32,000 nt of DNA from Coprobacillaceae bacterium (GCA_963675515.1 OY776328.1:1920001-1952000); one strand, 5' to 3'. Positions 4,553 through 32,000 are shown, counted from the stretch's first letter. Program-made: numbers and translations. The notes: a model not told the origin generated them from the sequence alone.

Positions 4553-4562
4553 TATGACTCCT

Positions 4563-6568: not shown

Positions 6569-6569
6569 A

Positions 6570-7028
6570 CTATCCCCTTTTGATTTCCAGACCATCCAGG
6601 ATCAGCTTCTGGAGATCGGTCATTTCTTTTTCATCCTCGTCATTCATATGGTCATAGCCAAGCAAATGAAGCAGGCCGTGGGTGAAAAGGAAGCAGAACT
6701 CTCTTCTTAGCGAATGACCGTATTCTTTGGCCTGATTGATCACATAATCGTCACAGATGAAAATGTCACCCAACATCCTGATTTCCCCTCCGACTATCTG
6801 TTCGCCCTCTTCCAATGCGAAGGAAATGACATCGGTAGGCCGGTCGATATGCCGGTATTCCCTGTTTATCTCGTGGATCTTTTCAGTAGAAACGATGATG
6901 CATGAGAGCTCCAGGTCCTCTTCGATATTCAACAGCTCACAGGTCTTCAAAACGATGTTGTTCAAATCCCCGCTGTAATCTTCTTCAATTTTTTCCGATT
7001 GGTTTATTAACGCTAAATCTATTTCCAT
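6570..7028 (-). CDS. ybeY: rRNA maturation endoribonuclease YbeY
   Basis: 152 aa with the metal-binding motif HGLLHLLGYDH. Confidence 0.92.
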   Translation of the reverse strand: MEIDLALINQSEKIEEDYSGDLNNIVLKTCELLNIEEDLELSCIIVSTEKIHEINREYRHIDRPTDVISFALEEGEQIVGGEIRMLGDIFICDDYVINQAKEYGHSLRREFCFLFTHGLLHLLGYDHMNDEDEKEMTDLQKLILDGLEIKRG

Positions 7029-7046
7029 TCAATTCACCTTACTTTT

Positions 7047-17213: not shown

Positions 17214-17287
17214 AGGGGCGTAGTTCAATGGTAGAATACCGGTCTCCAAAACCGTTGATGCGGGTTCAACTCCTGCCGCCCCTGCCA
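17214..17287 (+). tRNA. tRNA-Trp (anticodon CCA), CCA encoded
   Basis: Acceptor stem AGGGGCG/CGCCCCT. Anticodon loop CTCCAAA. T arm GCGGGTTCAACTCCTGC. The 3' end is GCCA. Confidence 0.93.
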
Positions 17288-17412
17288 TTTGATAAATTAT
17301 CCGCTAATTAAGCGGTTTTTTTGTGCTTTCAAAAAGTCATCCAGCGGCAAATAAGCCAAACTTTTAGACATTCAAGTAAAAATGCAATAATTTCAGATGA
17401 TAAAGTCGAACC
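17283..17412 (+). repeat. Junction repeat copy T: the tRNA-Trp 3' end plus downstream flank (att-like core TGCCATTTGATAAAT at 17283-17297)
   Basis: The 15-nt core recurs perfectly at 22371, 24465 and 31520 in the same orientation. The next 75-150 nt are recognisably homologous in all copies. Confidence 0.85.
17301..17322 (+). terminator. Rho-independent terminator of the tRNA operon
   Basis: CCGCT-AATTA-AGCGG followed by TTTTTTT. Degenerate versions of this hairpin occur in the other three junction copies. Confidence 0.6.
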
Positions 17413-17462
17413 TTTTTAATGCGATGAAGGTTCGACTCTTAACTCTCCTTGAACACAAATAG

Positions 17463-18533
17463 TTATCTCTGCAATCTAGAAAATTTAACATCATTTATAT
17501 ACATTCCATACAACTCATTGCTATCAATCATTGTCAGCAAATCCTGTTTTTTAACGTAAACTCGCACACCAATCCCGGAGACACCATTCTCCATCGCATC
17601 CTCATACCGTGCAGATAAATCCTCATACATTTTTGCCGCACTATTACCACTGTAATCATATGAAAAATACGAATACATCAAATAGAGAAAATCTTTATGA
17701 TCCAGGAGCAGTTTCATTCTGGAAAGATAACTTTGCACTATGTCACTAGCTTTATATTCATTAAAATATAACCCAGGATATTTATTGCTGAATTCTTCGT
17801 TCAAGTCATAGCGAATTGTGTCAGAAAGAGAAATTCCAGTTGCAATATCCGTTCCCTGATCCACTCCTGTAGCCAACCAAACGAATCTAGAACCATTATA
17901 ATTATTTACAAAATCAATTACCTCTTCGACCGATATTGTATTTGCAAAGCTCAAAGAGACGTCTAAAATAGCTGATTCAGGCAATTCTTCAATATCGGCA
18001 AGGTTATAAGCAGTCTGCCATTGAACAAAATTTTCTATTGAATCATCATAATATTCCCCGTAAACCCTACTAAATATATGATCATAAGAACTGTCGATTT
18101 CCAAGGACGAACGATTAATAGTCAGAGTAGTGTTGGGAATTCCATCGACAGTTAAAAATGAAAAAGATGGCTGCATTTTTGCATTAATTGTATAGTTCCC
18201 AAATCCAAGATTGTTATAATCAATCCCATCATAAAAGACGCCCGGGAAATACATACTAAGAAATATCCCAGTCAGCATATTAAAGCCGTTTATCCCTTCA
18301 TCGGGAATTACCAATCCTGTTTCATCCTCAGGATTATAATTTACGAGGTTTAGACCATAAGAAGTCCCAAAAAAGCCTGCCGATAAAATTATGGAAATGA
18401 TCAACATAACTGCAATAACCCGGATATAAATGCGACGATTAATTCGTCGATTTATTTTTTTTTCAATCTCTTTAAACTCATTATCATCCAAATCTTCATG
18501 CTCGAACAATTCGTTGAACTCTTCATCATTCAT
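17463..18533 (-). CDS. Putative anti-sigma factor (single-pass membrane protein with a large extracytoplasmic domain)
   Basis: 356 aa with an acidic N-terminus, one TM helix (IRVIAVMLIISIILSAGFFG) and a C-terminal domain of about 290 aa. Its ATG overlaps the stop of the upstream ECF sigma gene by 8 nt (ATGAATGA). Confidence 0.6.
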   Translation of the reverse strand: MNDEEFNELFEHEDLDDNEFKEIEKKINRRINRRIYIRVIAVMLIISIILSAGFFGTSYGLNLVNYNPEDETGLVIPDEGINGFNMLTGIFLSMYFPGVFYDGIDYNNLGFGNYTINAKMQPSFSFLTVDGIPNTTLTINRSSLEIDSSYDHIFSRVYGEYYDDSIENFVQWQTAYNLADIEELPESAILDVSLSFANTISVEEVIDFVNNYNGSRFVWLATGVDQGTDIATGISLSDTIRYDLNEEFSNKYPGLYFNEYKASDIVQSYLSRMKLLLDHKDFLYLMYSYFSYDYSGNSAAKMYEDLSARYEDAMENGVSGIGVRVYVKKQDLLTMIDSNELYGMYINDVKFSRLQR

Positions 18534-18922
18534 GGTATTCCTCCTTCACACTTTCCATCAATTGCATTTTCACCCTGTGTTTTATCACTCTTACATTTTC
18601 TATACTGACATTAGCAATGTCAGATATTTCTTTATCGGATAACTCATTTTTAAGACTAAGCACCATAATTTCTCGATCACGGGGCTTCAATTCAAAAATT
18701 CTCTTGTATAACCACAACCTCTTCTCATCTTTGATAATATTTTCCAAGATTACATCTTTTTGTTCTAAAAGTTCAATAACAGTGACATCGATGTTAATCT
18801 CATTTTTCTTTTTCTTATACAGATTATAGCATTCATTTCTAATCACTTTATAGAGCCATGCCCTGATGTTTCCTCCATTGAAACTCAGGTATGCTCGTAC
18901 AAACGCGTTTGCTAGAACATCC
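18526..18922 (-). pseudogene. ECF sigma-70 family factor, 3' portion (regions 2.x-4), separated from its 5' end by IS66
   Basis: ...DVLANAFVRAYLSFNGGNIRAWLYKVIRNECYN... and the region 4 HTH LSDKEISDIANVSIENVRVIKHR. The frame continues exactly from 21697-21799 once the IS and one TSD copy are removed. Confidence 0.85.
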
Positions 18923-18999
18923 GTACGCGCCAAATAGAGCGGTGGTAGGATTCCTGTCGTTTTGTTGATACAATGATCACATCAATTTGGAGGTGTGAT

Positions 19000-19332
19000 A
19001 TGAGTCAGTATTCTCAAGAACAGTGGCATCAGTTTTTCGAAGATGCCGCCAATAGTGATTTACCAATCAAGAAATGGTGCTTAGCCAATGACGTTTCTTT
19101 TAATGCCTTTTGCTACCACAAATATTCGAAGCCTTATCGTAAAAAATCCAGGATAAGCGAATGTGCCAGCGAAGTCAACAGCCCGCTGGTGAAGCTCAGC
19201 TTAGTCGATTGCGTTCCAACCATTCGTAATGACGGGTTTGAAATCTCCATTGGTAAAGCCTGCATCAAAGTTGATGATTCAACGGATTTGGTGACTTTGG
19301 CCAAGCTTATCAGGTTGCTCAATGAAGATTAA
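19000..19332 (+). CDS. tnpA: IS66 accessory protein TnpA (orf1)
   Basis: The ATG follows a GGAGGTG RBS. It is small and HTH-like (IKKWCLANDVSFNAFCYHKY), and it is the first gene of the IS66 triplet. Confidence 0.75.
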   Translation: MSQYSQEQWHQFFEDAANSDLPIKKWCLANDVSFNAFCYHKYSKPYRKKSRISECASEVNSPLVKLSLVDCVPTIRNDGFEISIGKACIKVDDSTDLVTLAKLIRLLNED

Positions 19333-19681
19333 ATTTGAGGACTTCGACAATATCTATCTGGTACCCGGAGCAACGGATTTAAGAAAAAGTTATGCGGGAT
19401 TGAGCGCCATGGTGAGCCACAATCTTTACCTGGATCCAACCGCCAATAATCTCTACATATTTTGTAGCCGCAACAAGCGAACTATCAAGATGTTGGAGTT
19501 TGATAAAAACGGTTTTGTCATCCACTCCAAGAAGCTGTTGAACACTGATCGATTCTATTGGCCCAAGGCCCAAGATGATATCAGCTCGATGACCGTTGAC
19601 TTGCGGCAGCTAAACTGGCTACTTGATGGTCTGGAGATTGAACAAAAGCGGGCGTTCAAGGATATTTCAGTAATAATTTAG
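19322..19681 (+). CDS. tnpB: IS66 accessory protein TnpB (orf2)
   Basis: 119 aa with the YLVPGATDLRKSYAGLSAMV and NLYIFCSRNKRTIKML motifs typical of IS66 Orf2. It overlaps tnpA by 11 nt. Confidence 0.85.
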   Translation: MKIKFEDFDNIYLVPGATDLRKSYAGLSAMVSHNLYLDPTANNLYIFCSRNKRTIKMLEFDKNGFVIHSKKLLNTDRFYWPKAQDDISSMTVDLRQLNWLLDGLEIEQKRAFKDISVII

Positions 19682-19826
19682 CGAAAGATATAGGAGTAAT
19701 TCACAATAATTTGTGGGTTTCTTTTATATCTTTTTAAGTTATTCACATCTTTAATAAATTGCCGTAAAATCAAGACTTACAGCCATTTTTATGGTATACT
19801 CTCAAAGAGAAACGAGGTGGATTTCG

Positions 19827-21632
19827 ATGATAAAGCTGATGGAAAATATGTCTAAAGAAGAGCTGATTGCTGCTTTCAAAAATAGAGAAAAAGAGCTTTG
19901 TGAGAAAATCGAATCCGACCGTATTTCAAAAGTTAAACTTATCAAAGAAAATGAGTTGTTGGCTGCCAAAGAAAAGAAATTCACTGCTAAAGAAAAGACT
20001 TTGATCGCCGAAAATAAGAAGCTGATTAGTGAAATCAACGAACGCAAATTGGAACTGCAACAGAAAAACGAATATATCAAGATATTAGAAAACGCCCGAT
20101 ATTCCTCTCAGAGAAATAATATAAAAGAATACAATCAAGGTCCCGACCTTTTCAGTCTGATTGGTATCGATTTTGGTGTGGTAACTGAGACTGAAGAAAT
20201 AGAAGTCAAGGAAATCAAAGGGTACAAAAGAAAAGTAAGAATCCCTAAAGAAAAGCACATTAACTACGATCACCTAAAAACCAATGTCATTGACGAGCCG
20301 ACACCAGAAAATTTCGATGTCTGCGACCTTTGTGGTACAACCATGAAAATAAAAAAGTACGATGAAAGAAAGGAACTCGTCTATACCCCAGCCAAAGTGG
20401 AAATGAATATATACCGTACTCCAGTATACGAATGTGTTGCTTGCCAGGAACATAACCTGGACGGCAAGTCATCTTATAAAAGAGTTCCGGGCAGACAACC
20501 TGTCATCAAGGGGAGCATTGCTTCACCTTCGCTGATTGCGAATATAATGGATATGAAATATTTGAAGGGTTTGCCCCTGGCCGCTCAGGAAAAACGATTC
20601 CTGGAGAATGATGTTGTCATCCCTAGACAAAATATGGCCAATTGGATGATTAAAGCCTCGGTACATCTGGGTTTACTGTTCGAATGCATGCGCAAGGATC
20701 TGTTGGCCATGAATGTGATACACTGCGACGAAACCACGACCCAAATTTTAAATGAAGAGGGCAAGACGGCTCAAAGTAAATCCTACATGTGGGTGGTAAG
20801 AACCTGCCAATATGATGTGCCGATCATCTTATATCGTTATGATCCCACTCGCTCAAAACGTGTTGTCGAAGATTTCATCGGAGATTATTCGAACTACCTG
20901 GTAACCGATGCATATGGGGCCTACGAGGCCCTTGATAATGTCACCAACTGTTTTTGCCACGTCCACGCCTTCCGTTATTTCCGTAAAGCCCTTGAGGTAT
21001 TGCCAAAAGGTAGTGATAAAAGCAAAAGTTACGAATATACGTGCTATCGTTATTACCAGAAAATATTCGAAGCAAAAAACAAGATTGAAACGACCGCTAA
21101 GTCAAAACACTGCAAAAATCCAGTTAAATATTTTGAGTATGTTCATAAGGGCCGAAATGATATCGTAAAGCCTATTTATGACAATTTTTTAGCGTACCTT
21201 AAAGAAATAATCTTGCTACCTGAAGTGAATATGAAACCTACGTTGATCAAGGCAATTAATTACGAATTGAACCATGAGAAGGAATTCCGTGAAGTATTCA
21301 ATAATCCAAAAGTTCCGTTCGACAATTCAAGCGCCGAGAGAGTTATCAGACCATTTGTGGTATCTAGAAATCGCTGCAAGTTCTATACCAGCCCCAAAGG
21401 AGCCCAAGCTGCGGCAATCATCTACTCGTTACTACTAAGTGCTGAAGAGAACGGGTTGTCAGCATACATGTACATGGAGTACGTATTGGAAAGATTACCA
21501 AGCATCGATCCAAGTGATGAGGTCGAAATCAGAAAGCTATTACCATACAACAAGGACCTGCCCAAATATTTGCGCCAACTGACGGCCAAAGAAATCAAAG
21601 AACTCAAATTAGGAATCCAAAGACAGAAATAA
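19827..21632 (+). CDS. tnpC: IS66-family transposase TnpC
   Basis: It has an N-terminal coiled coil, zinc-finger cysteines (CDLCG...CVACQ) and a DDE core (HCDETT, YLVTDAYGAY, NSSAERVIR). The preferred start MIKLMEN follows a GAGGTGG RBS. Confidence 0.9.
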   Translation: MIKLMENMSKEELIAAFKNREKELCEKIESDRISKVKLIKENELLAAKEKKFTAKEKTLIAENKKLISEINERKLELQQKNEYIKILENARYSSQRNNIKEYNQGPDLFSLIGIDFGVVTETEEIEVKEIKGYKRKVRIPKEKHINYDHLKTNVIDEPTPENFDVCDLCGTTMKIKKYDERKELVYTPAKVEMNIYRTPVYECVACQEHNLDGKSSYKRVPGRQPVIKGSIASPSLIANIMDMKYLKGLPLAAQEKRFLENDVVIPRQNMANWMIKASVHLGLLFECMRKDLLAMNVIHCDETTTQILNEEGKTAQSKSYMWVVRTCQYDVPIILYRYDPTRSKRVVEDFIGDYSNYLVTDAYGAYEALDNVTNCFCHVHAFRYFRKALEVLPKGSDKSKSYEYTCYRYYQKIFEAKNKIETTAKSKHCKNPVKYFEYVHKGRNDIVKPIYDNFLAYLKEIILLPEVNMKPTLIKAINYELNHEKEFREVFNNPKVPFDNSSAERVIRPFVVSRNRCKFYTSPKGAQAAAIIYSLLLSAEENGLSAYMYMEYVLERLPSIDPSDEVEIRKLLPYNKDLPKYLRQLTAKEIKELKLGIQRQK

Positions 21633-21696
21633 ATTGTCCGCGGATTCCTTTTTCCTTGCATCAGAATATTCTTCCACCGCTCTATTTGACGCTTAC

Positions 21697-21799
21697 GAAC
21701 ATCCTTCGCATCTTCCTTGTCATTAGTGAGGGACAGTGCGTACAGAAATAACTGCTGATAGTATTTTCTATATACTATTTCGAAATCATCATTTCTCAT
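21697..21799 (-). pseudogene. ECF sigma factor, 5' portion (first 34 codons) cut off by the IS66 insertion
   Basis: MRNDDFEIVYRKYYQQLFLYALSLTNDKEDAKDV follows a GGTGGAGG RBS. The tracked 145-aa ORF continues artefactually into the IS66 right end. Confidence 0.85.
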
Positions 21800-22034
21800 A
21801 CCTCCACCTCTCTCATATATATAACAATTTAAAAGTAAATTAATTACAAAATTCCACATATTTATTACAAAAACATTGACCGATATATTTTTTATTTACA
21901 AATTTTAATTAATTATATCATAATTCACACTAGTATACGTGATTTGCTAAAATATCGGGAATCTTACTAATGAGTTAATCCTCTGCATTTTTTGCAAATT
22001 AATGACAACATAATCTAATATTGCCACTAATTTA

Positions 22035-22520
22035 AAAAAACTGGCTATCGGACGATAGACGAGCTCTCCACTACTTGTTAGAGCAATTGTATCTCAGCTA
22101 ATACGTTGACTTGCCGCGAAAACTCGGTCACCGTTCCGACTCAGTCGCAACGTGTGTATCTTAGAAATTCCAGCCTTACTATCTTACCACGACAGTTTTG
22201 AATGTAAGTTTTATCTCCGTTATTTCAATGTCGAGAACCCTTTTAGCTACTCCAAATGCAATCCTGATAACCTATCCACTTGTCAAAGATTAAGTAGATA
22301 AAAAACACAATTCTCCAACGATAATTGCGTTAATTATCGGTAAAAAAGTTCGAGGCACATATGCTAATGGTGCCATTTGATAAATCATCATCTTGTTAAG
22401 CGGTTTTTTGTGCATTTATACAGGACCCGGCGGTAAATGAGTCGAACTATATTCACTCTAAAAACATTAAATGTCTGAAATGTAATTCATAAACATGTTT
22501 GGAGTTCGAAAATTCAATGT
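22035..22520 (+). repeat. Junction repeat copy A: a non-coding module of about 336 bp, then the core (22371-22385), then the homologous flank
   Basis: It aligns along its length with 24133-24640. It shares the core and flank with the tRNA-Trp copy. Boundaries are approximate. Confidence 0.85.
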
Positions 22521-22568
22521 AAAAGTTTCGCCATCAACAAGCCGTAATTGCAAAACATTGAATCTTAT

Positions 22569-23981
22569 TTATAAGATGGCTGGAATATAAATTACCAAAT
22601 TCCAGCCACTAACATTTGTCTCAAATGCATAGACCGGCTGATAGTACGCTTTACTGTCTACCAAATATTCAAGTGAAACTTCGCCGATGTCGAGACTCAA
22701 TTCATTCGAATTTGAATTGATAGAAAACCTTCCATCCTCAATCATCTCAAATGCTTCTTCTTGAGATATGATGTCGCAGTCCTTATAATATTCACATAGA
22801 ATTATGTCACTGGTGATTGATCCCATTTTACCGTTTTCATAGTATGTGCATGAAATCGTGCCATCACAGATGGTTTCGCCTTTGGAGATGCCATTTGCTG
22901 TTAGGGTATAGTTACCTTCCCCGTTATTGGTGAAATCCATACCAACTGGGAGTTCAATGCCGTATTTTCCAAGTGCCAACACAATATCTTCTTCAGTCGC
23001 ATTCAAGACCGTTTCGCTTGGTGAATCCATAGAATCAGCATTGAAATCTGAAATATGATACGTACCACCAAGATAATCCATCCAATATGAATATCCGTCA
23101 AAACTGTTATAAACCGCAGTCTCATCATATATCTGCGTGCGACTCTCATTTATTGTATCTCCAAGCGATTCAAAGAATTTTTCCGCGTATTGATATGTTT
23201 CTACCTGAGTGAATCTTTTTGTCTTATAGACTTTGCATCTTGCACGCTTGTCGCTATAGTCATACTCAGAACTTACACTCAATATATCAGGATTCACTTT
23301 TGAAATGTACTCAACGGACAGATTACCAAGATCCTGGCGAGAATAAGCAGTAAAGATAGATGTAAAAGTTACAATTAAAATAATAAAAGGAAGTTGCAAT
23401 GCTGCAGTCTTTTTAAAACCATGCTTTTTCCCTTTGAAGCTTGAAATTATCGTAGATAAAAGTGCAAAACACCCATAGCCAATCATCACTCCCATTGTAT
23501 TATCAAAAATATCATCAAATTCAAATAACCCAATTCTTAAAACATACTGTATGATTTCAATTACTAAACTCATTAAGAAACCAACAAGATATGTTATCCA
23601 AAATTTCCTGAACCTTTGAATTCCAACTGGAAGCAAGAATCCAAGAGGCACAAATAAAACAATATTCAGGATAATGTTCCGCCAATCTCTAGGTCTGAAA
23701 TTCACCCAAGCTTCTCTATACGAATAAAAAAGCGAATGTATTTGAGAGTTCTCATAGAATGGCACCCGATTTAACATCGTCGCGCCAAAAATTACAGCTA
23801 AATAACAAACAAATACGATAAACCAGATCATCATCGATTTCGAGACAGTTTTTCTTCCCTTAAAAATCCTTTTGTAAAAGACAAAATACACAAACGAAAC
23901 TAACGTGGTTAAAAATGCTGCCAAAATTATTCCAAATATCAAATAGCGCTCACCTAATGAGATCATGTCAGATATCCTCAT
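22569..23981 (-). CDS. VanZ-family membrane protein with a C-terminal extracytoplasmic extension of about 250 aa
   Basis: VanZ hallmarks are present: NIVLFVPLGFLLP, EIIQ, FDDIFDNTMG. The start MRISDMISLG follows a GGGGGAGG RBS. There are multiple TM helices, then a soluble tail. Confidence 0.8.
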   Translation of the reverse strand: MRISDMISLGERYLIFGIILAAFLTTLVSFVYFVFYKRIFKGRKTVSKSMMIWFIVFVCYLAVIFGATMLNRVPFYENSQIHSLFYSYREAWVNFRPRDWRNIILNIVLFVPLGFLLPVGIQRFRKFWITYLVGFLMSLVIEIIQYVLRIGLFEFDDIFDNTMGVMIGYGCFALLSTIISSFKGKKHGFKKTAALQLPFIILIVTFTSIFTAYSRQDLGNLSVEYISKVNPDILSVSSEYDYSDKRARCKVYKTKRFTQVETYQYAEKFFESLGDTINESRTQIYDETAVYNSFDGYSYWMDYLGGTYHISDFNADSMDSPSETVLNATEEDIVLALGKYGIELPVGMDFTNNGEGNYTLTANGISKGETICDGTISCTYYENGKMGSITSDIILCEYYKDCDIISQEEAFEMIEDGRFSINSNSNELSLDIGEVSLEYLVDSKAYYQPVYAFETNVSGWNLVIYIPAIL

Positions 23982-24132
23982 TAAACCTCCCCCTTTCTGG
24001 TTGAATGATTTTTTTATACACAACAAGCATAACTACTATAACATATGTAACCATCTTCAGGAATACAATCGCAGTCATTTTTATGTTTTTTGTATATGAG
24101 TGACAATACAAATTTACATTTTCATTCATGTA

Positions 24133-24640
24133 CAAAAACTGGTTATTGAACAAGAGAAGCACTCTCTACTACTTTTTTAGCAATTGCATCTTTGCTAATA
24201 AGTTGACTTGCCTGCGACAGTACGATCACTGCTTTGACTCAGTCGCAACGTGTGTATCTTAGAAGTTTCAGCCCTACTATCTTGCCACGATAATTTTAAA
24301 TGTTAGTTTTATCGCCGTTATTTCAATGTTGCAAACCCATTTAGCTACTCCAACTGTTATCCAATAACCTAACCATTTGTCAAAGATCAAGCAAAAAAAC
24401 ACAATCATCCAACAAAAATTGCATTAATTATTGGCAAAAAAGTTCGACGCACATGTGCTAATGGTGCCATTTGATAAATTATCTGCTTAATAAGCTGTTT
24501 CTTTGTGTTTTCAAACAGGGATCCATTGATCACTAGTCGAAGTATACCTATTTTCAAAAACACAAATTAAATTATATGTATTTCAAATTTTCGATACTGC
24601 CTCTAAATTTACAACGTTGCAATTAATCTATTTTCGCAAA
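24133..24640 (+). repeat. Junction repeat copy B: a non-coding module of about 332 bp, then the core (24465-24479), then the flank
   Basis: It is homologous to copy A. From 24431 onward it is near-identical to 31486 onward (offset 7055). Confidence 0.88.
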
Positions 24641-24645
24641 GAAAG

Positions 24646-25203
24646 CTATTTATTCACATTCAGCCATACCTCTTTAGTAAGTTCGTAACCAAGACAGTGG
24701 ACTATGTCCCCATCATTGGAATCAATTTTACGTTTCTCAATTTCATCTTTTACATAGATAAATCCAAGCTTGCCCAGGATATTTGCGGAAGCTATATTCT
24801 CTTTTTCGAAGCAGGCACAAATTTTGTCAATCGAGGTGTAATCAAATAAATAGTTGAATATTGATTTACATGTTTCTTGTATGTAACCTTGATGCTGAAA
24901 ATTTTTTCCTAAAATATATCCAATTGTAGCATTATTATCACATATGACTGCTTTGAAATTACCAATTACATTTTCTGGCTTTTCCTTCTTTGTAATTGCG
25001 ACATTATGTATATTTGGATCACTGATATATGGAATTATTTGAGTTACTAGTTTATTTCTAGTGCATTCCACGTTTGAGTGTGGATACCATGCCATATATG
25101 TTGAAAGTTGCTCATCGCAATAGAAGTTATTATACATACTATAAGCATCATCAATGATATAGTTTCTCAAAATTAATCTATCTGTCATAATATTTATACG
25201 CAT
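24646..25203 (-). CDS. GNAT-family N-acetyltransferase (RimJ/RimL-like), copy 1
   Basis: TDRLILRNY...D start typical of Acetyltransf_3, plus a QHQGYIQE acetyl-CoA loop. The ATG at 25203 lies 9 nt after GGAGG. Confidence 0.82.
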   Translation of the reverse strand: MRINIMTDRLILRNYIIDDAYSMYNNFYCDEQLSTYMAWYPHSNVECTRNKLVTQIIPYISDPNIHNVAITKKEKPENVIGNFKAVICDNNATIGYILGKNFQHQGYIQETCKSIFNYLFDYTSIDKICACFEKENIASANILGKLGFIYVKDEIEKRKIDSNDGDIVHCLGYELTKEVWLNVNK

Positions 25204-25930
25204 AATACTCAACCTCCCTTATTTTGATTTCAAGCACTTACTTCGCTAAAAGTGAGTGCTTTTTCATTTTATTTTTTATAATAAATCGTAACACACATGA
25301 ATATAATAATGAACTTAATTAACCATCAAATACATGTGAGTTCGATATTTGATTATCTTCACTTATGAAAAACTACTAAACATCGGCTTTTTGGCTGAAA
25401 GTAATTCTTCTTCGGTACCAACAATAAACTCCAAGATGTATCTGGTGGCTAATTAAGATAATGAACAACAATTATATAATCTTTAGAATTTTTTAGATTT
25501 TATTCATGAGATTATCAGTTAAAACTTGTGACTTAATATATCCTGCATGATAGGACAGTTGCCCATGAATCACACAAATATTTGTCCGAGCATTCAGATA
25601 TCGCAAAGAAGAAGCTGATAATCACGGATTTCCATCTCATCGCGTAGTTTCAAGGATACGTCTTGAATAAATTCATACTTGCCCTGACCGCTGGTTCCAC
25701 TCGACATTTTTTCCTTAGCTGTTATCTCTCCCGGTCCAATTAATTATGGATCCGATTTCCGACAAGTTGATAATCGAATCGATAGCAGCTACCAAAACAC
25801 TTTTTATAACCGGATCACTCACTCCTGGCGGTGCTACTGGTTGTGATTCAACTGCACTTGGCTCTTGCTCTTGTATTTCGCTATCTTAGGTGGGGAGCAA
25901 CTATTTATATTAAATTGACACTCCCAGGTT

Positions 25931-25990
25931 AAAAAAAAGATTCCGACTAATAGTGGAGAACCATTTAGGTCTCTTCGCTATTGGTCGGAA
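25931..25990 (-). terminator. Rho-independent terminator after the permease gene
   Basis: A long hairpin TTCCGACCAATAGCGAAGAGA...TCTCCACTATTAGTCGGAA (minus strand) is followed by TCTTTTTTTT. Confidence 0.65.
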
Positions 25991-26016
25991 GCAAGTTGTT
26001 GGAATTGAATTGAAAT

Positions 26017-27942
26017 TTATTTTTTGACAATTTGATAATAAGTGCGTGCGGTGAGGAGGTAGACCAGACAGTAGATTGCTGCCAGGAAAGCCACTGTGAT
26101 GATGGTGATTATAAAGTAAGTTTGGACATTGCCAAGCAGGGCCATCCTAAGCACTCTCAAGATCAGCGGAAAGGCAAAAGCCAGGTGGATGATGGCAACT
26201 ATCAATGGCAAAAAGAAGAATACCAGTACCTGGCTTTTGATTGCCTGTTTGACTTCTTTTTGGCTCATTCCGACATTCTGAAGGATCTCGAATTTGTTTT
26301 GGTCCTCGTACCCTTCGGAAAGCTGCTTGTTGTATATGATCATTATTGCCGCCATCAGGAACATCACCGACATGAAAATCCCGATGAAAAGCAGACTACC
26401 AAGCACTTCATAACTATCCTGCAGTTGAGCATCATGATTCAAGAAAGTGACAGAACGAGGACCTTCTTGATTGAAGAATTCATTTTTGATGGTATCGACA
26501 GTAGCTTCCAGCTTGGGATCATCACTGTTTAGTCCGATGGCATAGCCGGGAATCAGCTCAGTTAGAGCCGGAATTGTTGCAATCTGGCCATTTGCGAAGA
26601 TGACCGCCATTCGTCGAGGTGCGTAATAATTGCCAACCATGATCCGCGGATCCACAAAGGTGCCAACCACCTGATAATCAACCCCATCAATCCAGATGTC
26701 GTCCTCTTGATAGTCGAAACTGGTGTAAAGAACAACCTGGTTGGACTGTAATTCGATACTTTGATTGAAACCTTGATTGAAAGTATCCTGGCTTAAAGCG
26801 TTGAGATTGATGGTATCGTTGAAACTGTCACTACTAGTCGCTTCCAAGACTACATGACCATCATGATAGATTCCAATTGTATCAAGCAAATCAAAGGAGA
26901 AGTAATCATAATAGTCAAGATCTTGCAGATGCGCAGTCGCAATTTCCTCAAAGTTGTTTTCGACCTCGCGGGCATAACCCACCATGATCTGGTCAGCCGG
27001 ACATTGGCCGTCAACTGATTCCTGGATGCCAATATACATGCAAAAAGTCGAGGAAAAAGTCACCAGGACACAGGTACAAAGAATACAGATATTGGCCAGA
27101 CCGATGGCGTTTTGTTTCATCCGGTATAAAAGTCCCGAAATTGCTGTAAAATGACGGGTCTGATAATAATACCGTTTGTTTTTGCGCAAGAGTTTGAGCA
27201 AAGTAATGCTCCCAGCGGTGAAAAGACAATAGGTTCCAATCATCACCAGAATCACGGCCACAAGAAACAAAGCGATTGCCAGAACAGGATCAGTGATGGT
27301 CAGGGCGATATAATAACCGGCACCAAGAGCAACCAGTCCGATCATGGTCGTGATCAGTTTGGTCTTGGGCTCTTTTTCCCCAATATTGCCCCCTTTTAAC
27401 AGTTCAATCGGTTTGGTCAACTGGACACTCAGCACATTGACAGCCATCGAAACCAAAAAGATGGTCAGGTATAAAAGGGCTGTTTCAAGAATCCCTTTAA
27501 ACGAGACACTCAAGGCGAACTCGATTGGAGCATGAATCAGATTGGTGATCAAAAGATCCATCAGCTGACCAAGCAAGATCCCCATAATCACGCCAGCGAT
27601 GATTGAAACAGCAGCCACAATCATAGTTTCCAGCAGCATCATCACCATGACATGACGTTTTTCCATACCTAAGATATTGTAGAGGCTGATTTCCTTTTTC
27701 CGGTTTTTGATGACAAAGCTATTGCCATAAAGCAGGAAAACCGTGGCGAAGATCATGATCACATAAGTCCCCATCGACATGAAAGTGCTAAGGGTCGGCC
27801 TATTAGCCAGCGATTCGCTGTAGTAAAGCGATCTGACAATATAGAACAGACAGCTGGTGAAGATGGCCGAAAAGATGTAAGGATAGTAGAACTTGCGGTT
27901 CTGGTTGATATTGGTTCGGGCCAGTTTATGATAGAATCCCAT
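26017..27942 (-). CDS. BceB-type FtsX-domain ABC permease
   Basis: About 641 aa with 10 predicted TM segments and a large extracellular domain between the late helices. The start MGFYHKLARTNI follows a GGAGG RBS, 1 nt after the ATPase stop. Confidence 0.85.
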   Translation of the reverse strand: MGFYHKLARTNINQNRKFYYPYIFSAIFTSCLFYIVRSLYYSESLANRPTLSTFMSMGTYVIMIFATVFLLYGNSFVIKNRKKEISLYNILGMEKRHVMVMMLLETMIVAAVSIIAGVIMGILLGQLMDLLITNLIHAPIEFALSVSFKGILETALLYLTIFLVSMAVNVLSVQLTKPIELLKGGNIGEKEPKTKLITTMIGLVALGAGYYIALTITDPVLAIALFLVAVILVMIGTYCLFTAGSITLLKLLRKNKRYYYQTRHFTAISGLLYRMKQNAIGLANICILCTCVLVTFSSTFCMYIGIQESVDGQCPADQIMVGYAREVENNFEEIATAHLQDLDYYDYFSFDLLDTIGIYHDGHVVLEATSSDSFNDTINLNALSQDTFNQGFNQSIELQSNQVVLYTSFDYQEDDIWIDGVDYQVVGTFVDPRIMVGNYYAPRRMAVIFANGQIATIPALTELIPGYAIGLNSDDPKLEATVDTIKNEFFNQEGPRSVTFLNHDAQLQDSYEVLGSLLFIGIFMSVMFLMAAIMIIYNKQLSEGYEDQNKFEILQNVGMSQKEVKQAIKSQVLVFFFLPLIVAIIHLAFAFPLILRVLRMALLGNVQTYFIITIITVAFLAAIYCLVYLLTARTYYQIVKK

Positions 27943-27943
27943 T

Positions 27944-28702
27944 TTAACGGCCTCCAGTGGCAATCATCTTGAGGGTATCCGAGATTTTTTGGTACATCTG
28001 ATTGTTTGAAAGATCACTTTTGTAAAGCTGATGATAGATTTCCCCGTCCTTGATAAACAGGACCCGGCTGGCATAGCTGGCTGCCTTAGTTGAGTGGGTA
28101 ACCATCAAAATCGTCTGCTTGGATTTATGGATTTCATCAAAGATTTCCAAGAGATTATCGGTTGATCTGGAATCCAGGGCTCCGGTCGGCTCATCAGCCA
28201 GAACGATCTTGGGATTGGTGATCAAAGCCCGGGCTACAGCCACCCGCTGTTTTTGACCGCCGGAAATCTCATAAGGATATTTTTCCAGCAAGTCTTCAAT
28301 CCCCAGTTTGGGTGCCAAAGCGGATAACTTTTCCTTCATTGAAGGATATTTTTCCTTGGACAGGACTAATGGCAGATAAATATTGTCTTCCACTGACAAA
28401 GTATCCAGGAGATTGAAATCCTGGAAGACAAAGCCCAGGTTCTTTCTTCGAAACGATGATATTTCCTTGTCCTTGATTTTGGTGATATCTTCTCCTTCAA
28501 GTAAGACTTCCCCGCTGGTTGGCTTGTCAAGTGAAGCCAGGATATTAAGCAAGGTGGTTTTCCCACTGCCGGATTCGCCCATGATGGCGACATATTCACC
28601 GGCTTCAATTTCAAAGTTGACGTTTTTCAAAGCCTCTACTTTCTGTTTTGAAAAACGGGTTGTATATATCTTCTTTAATTGGTTTACTTTTAATAATGTC
28701 AT
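27944..28702 (-). CDS. BceA-type ABC ATP-binding protein
   Basis: 252 aa with GESGSGKTTLLN, LSGGQKQRVAVARAL, LADEPTGALD and the H-loop VTHS. Confidence 0.9.
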   Translation of the reverse strand: MTLLKVNQLKKIYTTRFSKQKVEALKNVNFEIEAGEYVAIMGESGSGKTTLLNILASLDKPTSGEVLLEGEDITKIKDKEISSFRRKNLGFVFQDFNLLDTLSVEDNIYLPLVLSKEKYPSMKEKLSALAPKLGIEDLLEKYPYEISGGQKQRVAVARALITNPKIVLADEPTGALDSRSTDNLLEIFDEIHKSKQTILMVTHSTKAASYASRVLFIKDGEIYHQLYKSDLSNNQMYQKISDTLKMIATGGR

Positions 28703-28783
28703 AAGTATTACCTTCCCTTCTTTATCAGTTTACTAAAAAAAGGAAATGTCCATCCATCGATGTTCCTTACATTTCCCGTTTCC

Positions 28784-28805
28784 AATCTTACAATTTTGTA
28801 AGATT
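28784..28805. promoter_or_regulatory. Near-perfect 22-bp palindrome, candidate BceR-type response-regulator operator upstream of the transporter genes
   Basis: AATCTTACAATTTTGTAAGATT (TTACAA/TTGTAA half-sites) overlaps the kinase stop codon, about 85 nt upstream of the ATPase ATG. Confidence 0.5.
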
Positions 28806-29778
28806 ACTCGATAAAGATGCTTTTTTTATAGAAATCGATGCATACGGTAGTTCCAACACCGACTACGGAATCAATCGTAATGCCATGATTTAACTTGTCT
28901 AGAATCAATTTGACTAGGTATAATCCGATCCCACTGGCTTTTTTGTCCTGGCGACCCTGAAAACCGGTGAAGCCCCGTTCAAAGACCCGGGGCAAATCTT
29001 CAGCTTGGATTCCAGTCCCGGTATCCTGGATATAGAGTCGGGAATTATCATTATAAATTGAAATCGTTCCCTGCTTAGTATACTTGATGGCATTGGAAAG
29101 AACCTGTTCTATCACAAAGGAACTCCATTTTTCATCAGTCAAGACCTTGGTATCATCAAGATTGTACTCCAGATTGACCTTGCCATGGGCAAAGAAAGTG
29201 ACTTGTTTTTTTAGAACCTCACTGACCAACTTATCCAGTGACACATATTCAAACAAAAAGTCGTTATTGATATCTTCAAGCCGAAGATACTGCAGCACCA
29301 TATTGACATATTGTTCAATCTTCAAAAGTTCCAGCACCATTTCCTGATTATTGCACTGTGACTGCAATAAAAGTTTCAAGGCTGAAATCGGAGTTTTGAT
29401 CTGATGAACCCAGATCGTATAGTAGTCAATCAAGCCCTGATATTTGTTTTGATTGACTTGTTTGGTATCTCTAATCAGATTATTGAGCTGATCAATCAAC
29501 TCCTGATATTCTCTTTCGATAACATCTTTGGGCTTAAGGAATGTATCCAAAGAAACATCGATTGAATTCTTTAAATTGAGGACATTGTGGTACCGGTTTT
29601 TGAAAGCCAAGAAATCAAAAATGCCAAAACCAATTACCAAGGCCAACCAAACCAAAGTCAAATACTCAATCACTGAAGTCTCGAGTTGAACCAGAGAGAA
29701 AACCAACACTTCAAAGATGATGAAGATGGTAAAGACAAGGTATATGAATTTGCGATAGTTAAGATATTTCAACATCAA
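28804..29778 (-). CDS. BceS-type intramembrane-sensing histidine kinase
   Basis: 324 aa with two N-terminal TM helices joined by a minimal loop, the H-box HQIKTPISAL, the N-box SNAIKYT, and the G-boxes DTGTGI and GIGLYLV. Confidence 0.85.
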   Translation of the reverse strand: MMLKYLNYRKFIYLVFTIFIIFEVLVFSLVQLETSVIEYLTLVWLALVIGFGIFDFLAFKNRYHNVLNLKNSIDVSLDTFLKPKDVIEREYQELIDQLNNLIRDTKQVNQNKYQGLIDYYTIWVHQIKTPISALKLLLQSQCNNQEMVLELLKIEQYVNMVLQYLRLEDINNDFLFEYVSLDKLVSEVLKKQVTFFAHGKVNLEYNLDDTKVLTDEKWSSFVIEQVLSNAIKYTKQGTISIYNDNSRLYIQDTGTGIQAEDLPRVFERGFTGFQGRQDKKASGIGLYLVKLILDKLNHGITIDSVVGVGTTVCIDFYKKSIFIE

Positions 29779-30443
29779 ATCAGATACCCCATTCCCTTTT
29801 TGGTCTTGATAAAATCATCCAGCCCGATTGTTTCCAGCTTCTTGCGTAGACGATTGACATTGACGCTTAACGTATTGTCATCGACAAATTGGTGGTCATC
29901 CCAAAGAAAGTTCATGATCTCCTCCCGAGACAAAATCGTTTCGGGCTTTTGAAACAGCAACTCCAATATCTTGACTTCATTCTTGGTTAACTCCAAAGCT
30001 GCATCATTGAAGGAAATAGTGGCATTAGCAACGTCCAAGATGACATCATTGTAGGTAAGCAGATGAAAATCCTTGGCAAAACTGTATGTTCTGCGTAGAA
30101 TTGCCTGGATTTTGGCCGTGATGACATTCAAATCAAAGGGTTTGTTTATAAAATCATCACCGCCCATGTTCATTGCCATCACAATATTCATGTTTTCATT
30201 AGCTGAGGAAATGAAGACAATTGGAATCTGCGAGATATTTCTGATTTCCCGGCACCAGTGGTAGCCGTCAAATGAAGGCAAATATATGTCCAGCAAAACC
30301 AGATCCGGAGCAAAAGCTGAGAAGTCAACTAGGACATTATTAAAATCAGTTATACAATTAACCTGATAACCCCATTTTTCCAGATGATTTTTAAGCGTTG
30401 AAGCAATGACACTGTCATCCTCAACTATCATGATTTTATACAT
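29775..30443 (-). CDS. OmpR-family response regulator (BceR-like)
   Basis: The start MYKIMIVEDD follows an AAGGAGAG RBS. It has a receiver Asp (LLDIYLP) and a winged-helix C-terminus (TLSVNVNRLRKKLE...TKKGMGY). Confidence 0.88.
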   Translation of the reverse strand: MYKIMIVEDDSVIASTLKNHLEKWGYQVNCITDFNNVLVDFSAFAPDLVLLDIYLPSFDGYHWCREIRNISQIPIVFISSANENMNIVMAMNMGGDDFINKPFDLNVITAKIQAILRRTYSFAKDFHLLTYNDVILDVANATISFNDAALELTKNEVKILELLFQKPETILSREEIMNFLWDDHQFVDDNTLSVNVNRLRKKLETIGLDDFIKTKKGMGYLI

Positions 30444-30664
30444 CCCTAACTCTCCTTTGCTTACGTGGAATGGCAACATTATTCCCGACACTTTTATAAA
30501 AAGCGTTTAGAAGTGGTAAAATTTAGCAGAAATAAAGCTAGATTAATCTATTCGAACATTAGTTATAAATTGCTTTAAATGATGAATCCGAATAGTTACC
30601 TCCGGGTCGAATGTAATAAATTCCGATATTGTTCTCATACTCTTATACTATAGAAAAGTACCCA

Positions 30665-31377
30665 TCACAATACGATATTTGCACTCATCAGCTCTGCCTG
30701 CTTTATGACTGTATTAATAGCATTTTTTGCTTGGTCTGGCGGATATTTGTATTTTCTTAGCAAGTGCTTTACCTGAGTTCTCACATAGGCTCTTGCAGAC
30801 TGTTTTTTATCCCAGTCAAGCGTTCTGCTTTTTTGAATCAATGTAGTTAATTCGTGCGCCATTTCGACTAAAATAGCATCCACCATATTTTGTAGGACTT
30901 TTGGGTCTGCAACAAGCGCATCATAAAATGCCAATTCTTCAGGTGACAAACCTTTTTCGTTACCATCAACATAGGCCTCAGTCATTTCTTTTGAAAGAGT
31001 CAAAAGCTCTTCAATAACTTCTGCACTTGTTATCATTCGATTGTTATAGCGTTTCAAAACATTTTGCGTTTTTTCAGAAATAAGTTAGGCATTAACCGCA
31101 CCGGTTCTTGCAAATATTCGGATATTATATTCTTACATGATACGCAATAGTTCTGCTGCAATATTTTTATTTTTCATTTTCCGTACTTGTGCCATATACT
31201 CATCCGAAAGTAGTGAAATCTCCGGATTTTTTTGCCTGAATGTTCAAATACGTTTACCACACCATCCTGTTGAATCGCTTGTTCAAGCATCTTCATAATG
31301 CGAGCATTAATTTCATTGGAAGTGATTTTTCCTTTTCCACAACTTTGCATATTCCAGCCATAACGGATATTATACAA
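30665..31377 (-). pseudogene. hsdR: Remnant of the type I restriction enzyme R subunit (hsdR C-terminal region), 5'-truncated, frameshifted and with in-frame stops
   Basis: Reading the minus strand gives ...VVNVFEHSGKK (frameshift in an A run) NPEISLLSDEYMAQVRKMKNKNIAAELLRIM*EYNIRIFARTGAVNA*LISEKTQNVLKRYNNRMITSAEVIEELL...KYKYPPDQ, the conserved HsdR C-terminal (DUF3387-type) sequence. Confidence 0.75.
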
Positions 31378-31414
31378 GATTCTAACATGTCCTTATCTTC
31401 TTGTCTAATTTAGT

Positions 31415-31700
31415 ATAACTTATCCACTTGTCAATAATCAAGCAGATAAAATAGCACAATTCTCCAACGAAAATTGCATTAACTATTGGCAAAAAAGTTC
31501 GACGCACATGTGCTAATGGTGCCATTTGATAAATTATCTGCTTAATAAGCGGTTTCTTTGTGTTTTCAAACAGGGATCCATTGATCACTAGTCGAAGTAT
31601 ACCTATTTTCAAAAACACAAATTAAATTATATGTATTTCAAATTTTCGATACTATCTCTAAATTTACAGCGTTGCAATTAATCTATTTTCTCAAAGAAAG
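31415..31700 (+). repeat. Junction repeat copy C: only the last 105 bp or so of the module, then the core (31520-31534), then the flank
   Basis: The left part resembles copy A (TATCCACTTGTCAA, CACAATTCTCCAACGA). From 31486 onward it is near-identical to copy B. Confidence 0.88.
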
Positions 31701-32000
31701 CTATTTATTCACATTCAGCCATACCTCTTTAGTAAGTTCGTAACCAAGACAGTGGACTATGTCCCCATCATCGGAATCAATTTTGCGTTTCTCAATTTCA
31801 TCTTTTACATAGATAAATCCAAGCTTGTCCAGGACATTTGCGGAAGCTATATTCTCTTTTTCGAAGCAGGCACAAATTTTGTCAATCGAGGTCTTATCAA
31901 ATAAATAGTTGAATATTGATTTACATGTTTCTTGTATGTAACCTTGATGCTGAAAATTTTTTCCTAAAATATAACCAATTGTAGCATTATTATCACATAT
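31701..32000 (-). CDS. GNAT-family N-acetyltransferase, copy 2 (3' part only; the gene runs off the window)
   Basis: It is near-identical to 24646-24945 with the stop codon at the equivalent position. It is missing from the ORF track because no start codon lies inside the window. Confidence 0.8.
   Translation of the reverse strand: MCDNNATIGYILGKNFQHQGYIQETCKSIFNYLFDKTSIDKICACFEKENIASANVLDKLGFIYVKDEIEKRKIDSDDGDIVHCLGYELTKEVWLNVNK

What the first reader, a model, noticed from the sequence alone, without database searches (positions are those of the whole stretch)
22035..22370. Conserved non-coding module of about 330 bp upstream of each core copy, with a 29-nt invariant block and a tRNA-like 3' end
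Immediately left of core copies A (22035-22370) and B (24133-24464) is a module that aligns end to end, roughly four fifths identical by eye. It is absent at the genuine tRNA copy and reduced to its last 105 bp or so at copy C (31415-31519). No ORF of 60 aa or more is shared by the copies. One 29-nt block is identical in A and B (GACTCAGTCGCAACGTGTGTATCTTAGAA; 22148-22176 and 24246-24274). It is bracketed by complementary GTTGACT / AGTCGCAAC arms. All three copies keep a minus-strand TTGACA hexamer (22281-22286, 24378-24383, 31429-31434). The module ends in GCTAATGGTGCCA, so it supplies a GCCA end where the tRNA would be. On the minus strand the module lies upstream of the cargo genes (sigma gene, VanZ gene). 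There the invariant block reads TGAAAC (B) or TGGAAT (A), then 14 nt, then CGTT. This resembles an ECF-type promoter, but the spacer is shorter than the usual 16-17 nt. Candidate roles are an attP arm carrying recombinase or directionality-factor sites, an outward-firing promoter that expresses each captured cassette, or an uncharacterised ncRNA.
Basis: partly seen in the sequence, partly recalled or inferred. Interest (0 to 1): 0.62.

Follow-up and report, generated by a model that had tools for sequence, protein, structure and literature searches.

The report
canT-like antiterminator RNA heading gene cassettes
The repeated 330-bp "module" is a folded non-coding RNA leader on the minus strand, a divergent relative of canT of the conjugative transposon Tn916 (an RNA that lets RNA polymerase ignore stop signals); here it sits orphaned at the head of integrase-less gene cassettes stacked behind tRNA genes.

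Summary
Modules A and B are 82% identical, and the 29-nt block is exact but lies at 22138-22166 and 24236-24264, 10 nt left of the stated positions.

The functional strand is the window's minus strand. About 255 nt of the module is a multi-helix element present at least 9 times in this genome. It heads unrelated cargo behind tRNA-Trp, tRNA-Leu and tRNA-His, and it occurs in 5 genera of the family.

Covariation is strong. In the core, 93.7% of cells are paired against 27-48% when partners are slid. The closing helix changes sequence completely between lineages.

Covariance models built only from these copies hit the orf8-xis spacer of canonical Tn916. That spacer is canT, a cis-acting processive antiterminator RNA shown by experiment (PMC11658703). 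Its core is Rfam pemK RNA (RF02913). The window copies themselves do not reach that Rfam model.

The "TTGACA hexamer" lies in a boxA-like sequence, close to this genome's own rRNA boxA.

Best reading: a canT-type antiterminator leader that carries transcription into each cassette. This rests on homology and was not tested here. The attP-arm and ECF-promoter readings are not supported.

This scan had already found canT/pemK RNAs on other DNA. What is new here is the divergent, orphan, multi-copy form.

The parts
17214..17287 (+). tRNA-Trp(CCA), the anchor of the cassette array. Its last 5 nt plus its trailer and terminator form the repeated core (17283-17343).
22371..22431 (+). Core copy A: TGCCA plus a decayed tRNA-Trp trailer and terminator.
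   Evidence: family D3, 67% identical to the tRNA copy
22291..22370 (-). Junction segment of copy A. It holds the imperfect palindrome GCATATGTGC, CGAACTTTTTT, a hairpin CGATAATT-AACGC-AATTATCG (22339-22319) and a U-run (22310-22300). Its role is unknown; it may be an insulating terminator, a promoter region or an att arm.
   Evidence: It is conserved only within the genus.
It is the homologue of the first bases of the functional Tn916 canT fragment (TTGAAAACTGAATAA).
22038..22275 (-). Structured body of copy A (match to model R1). The closing helix P1 is GGUUAUCAGG (22271-22262) with CCGAUAGCC (22051-22043). Inside it lie a multi-helix 5' domain, the core and 3' hairpins.
22084..22163 (-). 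Core of copy A (match to model R2), a divergent pemK-RNA-like core. It has AAGAUACAC, helix ACGUUG/CAACGU, a short helix ACU/AGU, a conserved internal loop GAGUC...GGCA, a variable hairpin, and the hairpin AGC-UGAGAU-GC.
21985..22042 (-). Long AU-rich hairpin after the module (U-run ... A-run; -19.7 kcal/mol). It stands in the same place as the terminator-like hairpins that precede mazF in sister genera.
24465..24525 (+). Core copy B.
24136..24372 (-). Structured body of copy B (R1 match, 263.8 bits). Its core is at 24181-24261 (R2, 85.2 bits). The boxA-like AUCUUUGACAA is at 24387-24377 and the junction segment runs up to 24464.
24080..24135 (-). 3' hairpin of copy B (-11.5 kcal/mol).
31415..31519 (-). 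Copy C, truncated. Only the junction segment and the boxA-like GAUUAUUGACAA remain; the structured body is gone. Core copy C follows at 31520-31580.

Best explanation
The module is the DNA for a cis-acting leader RNA read from the window's minus strand.

It begins with a boxA-like sequence, folds into a closed multi-helix structure of about 235 nt, and ends in a long hairpin just upstream of the cargo genes. Copy A precedes an IS66-broken ECF sigma gene and an anti-sigma gene. Copy B precedes a VanZ-like gene.

It is a divergent homologue of canT, the processive antiterminator RNA of Tn916, whose core is the Rfam pemK motif.

By homology, once RNA polymerase has transcribed the module, the nascent RNA stays with the elongation complex, possibly together with Nus factors recruited by boxA. 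This would make the complex resistant to terminators. Transcription would then run through the hairpin after the module, through the cargo, and perhaps through the tRNA-derived terminators that separate the cassettes.

Shown here:
- the fold and its strand;
- its multi-copy spread;
- its homology to canT/pemK;
- its constant orientation towards the cargo.

Inferred:
- that it is transcribed in this genome;
- where transcription starts;
- that it antiterminates.

The ~80 nt between the module body and the core, together with the core itself, belong to the att-type junction of integrase-less islands accreted at tRNA genes.
For: (1) Structure. In the core alignment of 23 distinct copies, 19 pairs show 93.7% of cells paired. 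This compares with 83% in shuffles (0/500 reach the observed value) and 27-48% when partners are slid. Seven pairs change on both sides and one pair has five pair types. In the 5' domain, with Tn916 included, 90.9% of cells are paired and 10 of 18 pairs are compensatory. The closing-helix arms pair at -11.1 kcal/mol with their own partner and -4.8 kcal/mol across lineages.

(2) Strand. A G.U pair dominates one core position in 18 sequences, and by eye the mismatches in the closing helix are G.U apart from isolated mismatches in F and L058. Every copy points the same way as the genes downstream.

(3) Non-coding. 1-nt indels fall in loops.

(4) Homology. R1, built from own-genus copies only, hits sister genera at E 1e-15 to 1e-8. 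It hits Tn916 at L102 3956-4144 with E 3.5e-6 as the top hit. R2 hits Tn916 at 4016-4089 with 36.2 bits and a Tn5397-like element in another family with 42.2 bits. Rfam pemK scores 55 bits at the same Tn916 place. The 5' domains of Tn916 and the sister-genus (Coprobacillaceae) copies align with 45 invariant columns.

(5) Function of the homologue. canT is a cis-acting, orientation-specific, processive antiterminator, and its 452-nt fragment starts 126 nt after orf8 (PMC11658703). That start point is exactly the boxA-like TTGAAAACTGAATAA.

(6) boxA. The seven rRNA operons of this genome carry GTTCATTGAAAACT in the leader and GATCATTGAAAACTGGATAAT in the spacer. Module copies D, F and J carry GATCATTGAAAA and copies A and B carry ATCTTTGACAA.

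(7) Selection within this genome. Copies A and E carry compensatory changes in the closing helix, and A has a rebuilt variable hairpin.
Against:
- No promoter could be placed, and the simple promoter/terminator scan was uninformative.
- The window copies do not reach the Rfam pemK model at all, with no hit at E<=10 even in a 131-nt search. Membership therefore rests on chained covariance-model hits whose E-values are rough.
- This genome has none of the usual partners: no orf7/orf8-like sigma genes, no Resolvase-N protein, no mazF and no integrase next to the arrays.
- A single-sequence fold is no better than shuffled sequence (z = 0).
- The boxA 12-mer also occurs elsewhere in the genome: 38 loose matches against about 3 expected.
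Confidence: 0.65

Rival explanations
1. The copies belong to the same RNA family but are dead relics in this genome. They would be leftovers of decayed tRNA-integrating elements, no longer transcribed or active.
For: No integrase, xis, sigma-like or mazF partners remain. Copies C and G are truncated. Copy F has a weakened closing helix. The sigma gene behind copy A is broken by an IS66 element.
Against: Eight full-length copies keep all helices at 72-91% identity. They carry compensatory changes, not random ones, in copies A and E. The H/I/J lineage lost exactly one hairpin cleanly. Flanking cargo shows no similarity at all, so the module is selectively retained.
Confidence: 0.15
2. The module is an attP arm that carries integrase and excisionase binding sites needed in cis to move each cassette.
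For: In this genus the module always lies about 80 nt from a copy of a tRNA 3' end plus terminator, at four tRNA loci. Short palindromes flank the core.
Against: In four other genera, in Tn916 and in an E. faecium plasmid the same element is internal. It lies upstream of mazF/xis/int or a serine recombinase and is not at an att site. Helix covariation with G.U pairs on one strand is not expected of double-stranded protein sites.
Confidence: 0.05
3. The element is a single-strand DNA origin (sso) or an oriT that lets cassettes hitch a ride on conjugation. The fold would form in transferred ssDNA.
For: It is a strand-specific fold inside mobile DNA. Copy I and G002 copy b lie at the head of Rep-like/Toprim/ParAB conjugative elements.
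Against: The Tn916 homologue was shown to work as an RNA-level, promoter-dependent, cis antiterminator in a reporter without transfer functions (PMC11658703). There was no match in 72,556 plasmids for the window-type copy and only one weak partial match for the sister-genus type. The boxA-like start is not paired as an ssDNA promoter would be.
Confidence: 0.05
4. The element is an RNA antitoxin or an autoregulatory leader for PemK/MazF toxins.
For: In four sister genera the module directly precedes a PemK/MazF gene with no MazE gene. A UACAU motif is conserved just before the mazF ribosome-binding site. From my own knowledge, UACAU is the Firmicute MazF cleavage site.
Against: This genome has no PemK gene at all, yet it keeps eight intact copies. 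Tn916 canT and the L093 copy precede xis or a recombinase, not mazF.
Confidence: 0.05
5. The invariant block holds an ECF-type promoter (TGAAAC/TGGAAT-N14-CGTT) that is driven by the adjacent sigma factor.
For: The hexamers exist as described in A and B.
Against: The spacer is too short. Both boxes lie in paired regions: the 3' strand of the P2 helix and the central helix. The motif is absent from homologues in other genera and from Tn916. Most copies have no sigma gene nearby.
Confidence: 0.02

Closest known systems
canT of Tn916 (conjugation-associated antitermination RNA; Wirachman & Grossman, PLoS Genet 2024, PMC11658703)
   Same: - It is homologous by two covariance models built without any Tn916 sequence.
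- It has the same order of parts: a boxA-like start, a closing helix, a multi-helix 5' domain, a GAUAC block, a central helix with a conserved internal loop, and 3' hairpins.
- It has the same orientation towards downstream genes.
- The only two AUA triplets that can be the inactivating canT(S3) mutation lie in GAUAAUGAUAC, the block conserved here as AAGAUAC (inference).
   Different: - The window copies share about 25-bit matches only, and they have a shorter 5' domain and lack one hairpin of the core.
- They are not flanked by orf7/orf8, xis or int.
- They occur in 8-9 copies per genome.
- They head unrelated cargo cassettes behind tRNA genes instead of gating conjugation genes after excision.
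- Their activity is untested.
pemK RNA motif (Rfam RF02913; from my own knowledge, reported as a candidate cis-regulatory RNA by Weinberg et al. 2017)
   Same: The Rfam model hits the same stretch of Tn916 (55 bits), of L093 (68.9 bits) and of the E. faecium copy (54.1 bits) that my models hit. Sister-genus copies do precede pemK genes.
   Different: The window copies give no hit at E<=10. Sister-genus copies reach 21 bits at best. The Rfam model covers 61 positions, whereas the conserved unit here is about 235-330 nt. The canT paper does not mention pemK or Rfam.
CIMEs and tandem accretion of integrative elements at tRNA genes (Streptococcus ICESt1/ICESt3 type; reviewed in PMC5704250)
   Same: Integrase-less islands lie head to tail, each bounded by a direct repeat of the tRNA 3' end and trailer.
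   Different: Here every island keeps one conserved non-coding RNA module as its only common content. The same module serves junctions built on three different tRNA ends: TGCCA, CGCACCA and TCGCCCCA.
conAn2 RNA of pLS20 (PMC8191782), put of HK022, EAR of the B. subtilis eps operon, and rrn/lambda boxA-Nus antitermination
   Same: All are cis-acting RNA antiterminators. conAn2 also has a ~240-nt centre flanked by a long-range inverted repeat with internal stem-loops. The module starts with a boxA-like sequence matching this genome's rRNA boxA.
   Different: There is no sequence similarity to plasmid conAn2. The upstream protein in relatives is Sigma70_r4_2, not ConAn1 (PF17362). Dependence on Nus factors is untested.

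Membership tests
canT (Tn916 antiterminator RNA) | Sequence and structure homology to the orf8-xis spacer of Tn916 | tested here: met
   R1 gives 23.9 bits (E 3.5e-6, top hit) and R2 gives 36.2 bits (E 1.7e-6) on L102, in the right place and strand. E-values are rough. The architecture also matches by alignment.
canT (Tn916 antiterminator RNA) | Lies downstream of orf7/orf8-type sigma-like genes and upstream of xis/int | tested here: not met
   The window copies lie between an att core and cargo, and the genome has no homologues of these genes. The feature is met in sister genera and in L093.
canT (Tn916 antiterminator RNA) | Orientation-specific, cis-acting, processive read-through of terminators | not testable with these tools
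   This needs a reporter assay or Term-seq.
pemK RNA (Rfam RF02913) | Score at or above the curated gathering threshold (34.8 bits) | tested here: not met
   No hit at E<=10 on 21800-24700 or on 22060-22190. Tn916, L093 and L101 pass.
pemK RNA (Rfam RF02913) | AUAAUGAUAC block, a following helix, and a hairpin with a UGAAAUU-type loop | tested here: inconclusive
   The window has CUAAGAUAC, the helix ACGUUG/CAACGU and the hairpin AGC-UGAGAU-GC, but it lacks the AGAAC-loop hairpin.
rRNA/lambda-type boxA antitermination signal | boxA sequence at the 5' end of the antiterminating RNA | tested here: met
   The rRNA leader and spacer boxA of this genome are GTTCATTGAAAACT and GATCATTGAAAACTGGATAAT. 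The modules carry GATCATTGAAAA (copies D, F, J) or ATCTTTGACAA (copies A, B). The short motif is not unique in the genome, and binding of NusB/NusE is untested.
attP arm of a tRNA-integrating element / CIME | Direct repeats of the tRNA 3' end bound each island | tested here: met
   Four copies of the core at 17283, 22371, 24465 and 31520. Junctions of the Leu and His types are also present.
attP arm of a tRNA-integrating element / CIME | The conserved module is adjacent to att in all homologues (as an arm would be) | tested here: not met
   The element is internal in sister genera, Tn916, L093 and L101.
ECF sigma-dependent promoter | Conserved -35 (GAAC-type) and -10 (CGT-type) boxes with a 16-17 nt spacer upstream of a start site | tested here: not met
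   The spacer is 14 nt, both boxes lie inside helices, and the motif is not conserved in relatives.
conAn (pLS20) bipartite antitermination | ConAn1 protein (PF17362) encoded just upstream of the RNA | tested here: not met
   Upstream proteins in relatives hit Sigma70_r4/r4_2 and Resolvase, not PF17362 (PMC8191782).

The most novel reading that the evidence does not exclude
The arrays are a working cassette system. Each integrase-less unit would consist of an att core, an insulating terminator, a canT-type antiterminator leader and cargo.

A tRNA-end-targeting recombinase supplied in trans would capture and shuffle the units between tRNA loci. The whole stack would be expressed as one terminator-proof transcript, because every cassette brings its own antiterminator.

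This would be a functional analogue of an integron, in which an RNA antiterminator replaces the common promoter.
Probability: 0.12. Interest if true: 0.8.

Novelty: new variant of a known kind. Interest (0 to 1): 0.5.

Why it matters
canT was shown in 2024 to be essential for Tn916 gene expression, but its authors could not derive a structure and left comparative analysis open. The divergent copies found here and in sister genera change almost every helix while keeping the pairing. They therefore give a covariation-supported architecture:
- a boxA-like start;
- a closing helix;
- a four-helix 5' domain;
- a GAUAC block;
- a central helix with a conserved internal loop.

This architecture can be tested directly by compensatory mutagenesis.

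The work also ties canT to the orphan Rfam motif pemK RNA and to a boxA-like signal, which points to a Nus-factor mechanism.

For this genome, it explains the only conserved feature of about ten integrase-less islands at four tRNA genes. It suggests that antiterminator leaders can be kept as portable expression modules for accessory genes, including envelope-stress and resistance-type cargo such as an ECF sigma factor, VanZ and ABC transporters.

Tried and rejected
- Small ORFs. A 13-aa frame (MAIKPTFKTIVAR) and a 57-aa frame with a good ribosome-binding site run through the core. Both were rejected: start codons are missing in A and B, and 1-nt loop indels break the frame.
- TTGACA-N16-GATAAC as the module's own sigma-70 promoter. 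Rejected because the covarying closing helix, with G.U pairs, starts inside the spacer, so the RNA must start upstream. The box is boxA-like instead.
- Invertible promoter (inverton) flanked by the closing-helix arms. Rejected because more than 25 copies all have the same internal orientation and, by eye, the arm mismatches are G.U type apart from isolated mismatches in F and L058.
- MITE with terminal inverted repeats. This does not explain the covariation of the internal helices.
- Extended -10 promoter TGGTAATAT at the 3' end. It is actually the 5' strand of a conserved hairpin.
- Riboswitch with a terminator/antiterminator switch. There is no conserved alternative pairing, because the terminator hairpins differ completely between elements.
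- Searches that gave little:
  - Rfam on the window;
  - plasmid blastn;
  - metagenome pattern scan, 1 hit;
  - viral contigs, 0 hits;
  - search for the att-proximal 128 nt, found only in the genus;
  - att repeat in L035, none found;
  - promoter/terminator scan.

Full report
THE OBSERVATION

The window is G000:C1:1920001-1952000. tRNA-Trp lies at 17214-17287. Its last 5 nt plus about 55 nt of trailer and terminator recur at 22371, 24465 and 31520.

To the left of the first two repeats lie modules A and B, which are 82% identical over about 390 nt. Copy C keeps only the last ~105 bp.

The 29-nt identical block is real, but it sits at 22138-22166 and 24236-24264, 10 nt to the left of the stated coordinates.

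No integrase lies in 17300-32000. The cargo is an anti-sigma-like gene, an ECF sigma gene split by an IS66 element, a VanZ-like gene, GNAT genes, a BceAB-like ABC transporter with a two-component system, and an hsdR fragment.

NOT A LOCAL REPEAT

The left ~255 nt of the module recurs elsewhere in this genome without the tRNA-Trp core:
- three copies behind tRNA-Leu(UAG);
- one copy 3.7 kb from tRNA-His;
- one copy 8 kb from tRNA-Leu(CAG);
- one copy in front of a Rep-like/Toprim/ParA/ParB block;
- a truncated copy just beyond the window.

The geometry is always the same. First comes the reverse complement of a tRNA 3' end (TGCCA, CGCACCA or TCGCCCCA) with its terminator. About 80 nt follow. 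Then comes the module, then unrelated cargo on the same strand, and finally the tRNA gene facing the cargo.

A FOLDED SINGLE STRAND, READ ON THE WINDOW'S MINUS STRAND

A model built from the nine own-genus copies (R1) finds the element in 10 of 151 genomes of the order. All ten are in one family, named Coprobacillaceae or Erysipelotrichaceae in record titles, and they span 5 genera.

The core of 23 distinct copies was aligned. My hand-drawn structure has 93.7% of cells paired. Shuffles give 83% and slid partners give 27-48%. Seven pairs change on both sides. The central helix appears as ACGUUG/CAACGU, AUGGUG/CACCAU, AUAGUG/CACUAU, AUAAUG/CAUUAU and AUACUG/CAGUAU.

The closing helix changes sequence completely between lineages. 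Each copy's two arms still fit each other: -11.1 kcal/mol with the own partner and -4.8 kcal/mol across lineages, and only 1.3% of cross pairs reach the self mean. By eye, its mismatches are G.U on this strand, apart from isolated mismatches in F and L058.

Frames through the core are broken by 1-nt loop indels, so the element is non-coding.

CONTEXT IN OTHER GENERA

In other genera the element sits in a fixed gene order: a small sigma70_r4 protein, a Resolvase-N-only protein, a sigma70_r4_2 protein, the element, a long hairpin with a short U-rich tail, PemK/MazF, an HTH_17 Xis-like protein and a tyrosine integrase. In some loci a tRNA gene follows. This is the layout of a Tn916-type regulation and recombination module. 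It shows that the element is not an att arm.

IDENTIFICATION

A core model built from Coprobacillaceae copies only (R2) found a hit in another family of Bacilli. It lies between an orf7-like gene, an orf8-like gene and a large serine recombinase.

Using that orf8-like protein, I fetched a canonical Tn916 copy with the gene order tet(M), orf6, orf9, orf7, orf8, xis, int (L102). The hits on it were:
- R2: 4016-4089, 36.2 bits, E 1.7e-6;
- R1: 3956-4144, E 3.5e-6;
- Rfam pemK RNA: 4014-4114, 55 bits against a threshold of 34.8 bits.

This spacer is canT. It is a 452-nt region required for Tn916 conjugation-gene expression. It works in cis, in one orientation only and processively, and it acts on heterologous terminators. 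The authors report that structure prediction was inconclusive and that they did not pursue comparative analysis (PMC11658703).

Their fragment starts 126 nt after the orf8 stop. That position is L102 3857, exactly the first base of TTGAAAACTGAATAA.

The putative orf5 has only two tyrosines. Both correspond to AUA triplets in GAUAAUGAUAC, so the inactivating S3 mutation must lie in the block conserved here as AAGAUAC (inference).

The 5' domains of Tn916, L093, an E. faecium plasmid copy and eight Coprobacillaceae copies align with 45 invariant columns. Ten of 18 pairs are compensatory and 90.9% of cells are paired.

The canT paper does not mention pemK or Rfam. I found no paper in the held library that links the two. 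Earlier reports of this scan had already made that link on other genomes.

boxA

All seven rRNA operons of this genome carry GTTCATTGAAAACT 104 nt before the 16S gene and GATCATTGAAAACTGGATAAT in the 16S-23S spacer.

Module copies D, F and J start with GATCATTGAAAA, followed in copy J by UUGAAUAGG. Copies A and B carry ATCTTTGACAA, and Tn916 carries GTTCTTTGAAAACTGAATAA.

The 12-mer is not unique in the genome, with 38 loose matches. This is a lead towards Nus-factor involvement, not proof.

WHAT REMAINS OPEN

- The window copies do not reach the Rfam pemK model. They lack one of its hairpins, so they are a divergent branch.
- No promoter could be placed. A -10-like box (GGCTAWATAAGTGA) and a 5' hairpin precede the boxA-like sequence in other genera, and a weaker equivalent exists here.
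- The ~80 nt next to the core is conserved only within the genus. It could hold an insulating terminator, a promoter or att-arm sites.
- The genome has none of the partner proteins. If the copies are active, they must act with host factors alone. That matches the reporter result for canT, where no other Tn916 gene was needed.

VERDICT

The module is a divergent, orphan, multi-copy member of the canT/pemK antiterminator-RNA lineage. It most likely serves as a terminator-proofing leader for each integrase-less cassette.

Noticed in passing
L102 4014-4114 (Tn916 copy on C. tetani plasmid NZ_AP026824.1): The orphan Rfam family pemK RNA (RF02913) scores 55 bits on the core of the experimentally defined canT antiterminator. 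The canT paper does not mention pemK or Rfam. Earlier reports of this scan made the same link.
   Followed up: partly
L044, L046-L051, L056 and L058, about 20-40 nt before the mazF start (sequences): A conserved UACAU lies just upstream of the mazF ribosome-binding site in every sister-genus element, right after a 12-14 bp hairpin whose sequence differs in each element. From my own knowledge, UACAU is the Firmicute MazF cleavage site. This may be self-cleavage feedback.
   Followed up: no
L071 (G118:C1:2720000-2733000, reverse complement) about 2700-7064; also L070: Very small integrative units of about 4.5 kb: XRE repressor, sigma-like gene, Resolvase-N-only gene, sigma-like gene, canT-like RNA, antitoxin-less MazF, Xis and Int. 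L070 holds two of them in inverted orientation.
   Followed up: partly
L035/L056 locus, L035 855-1750: Two further copies of the promoter-like/boxA unit lie upstream of the Resolvase-N gene. One has a 'mini' module that keeps the boxA-like start, the closing helix and the GCCATGAC...GCGAGCGA hairpin but lacks the pemK-like core.
   Followed up: no
window 18973-21632: An IS66-family element (three ORFs of 119, 119 and 613 aa) splits the ECF sigma gene. [quoted passage not shown]
   Followed up: partly
window 24393-25212 and 31448-32000: About 96% identical duplication of core, flank and a GNAT acetyltransferase gene. A third GNAT gene and a truncated module (genome 1952557-1952713) follow just beyond the window.
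   Followed up: partly
genome G000, e.g. 88321-90726, 260826-263231, 637828-640281, 834233-839649, 1434184-1438266: Five sets of three adjacent tyrosine recombinase genes, which look like recombinase-in-trio elements. None is next to the tRNA arrays.
   Followed up: no
G002:C1:552611-580000 (L068, L069): The same-genus genome has a tRNA-Trp-type core plus module heading membrane and PadR genes. A second, IS3-truncated module stands in front of AbiE, Rep-like, Toprim, ParAB and conjugation genes. The module can therefore head a whole conjugative element.
   Followed up: partly
L093 154-389: Rfam SQ2397 (cis-regulator of an HTH transcription factor) scores 170.7 bits upstream of the orf7-like gene of the Tn5397-like element. 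This is a known family.
   Followed up: no
genome G000 2351797 (+): A further TTTTAGATCATTGAAAAGTGAAT sequence resembles the start of a module but was not hit by R1. It may be another truncated copy.
   Followed up: no
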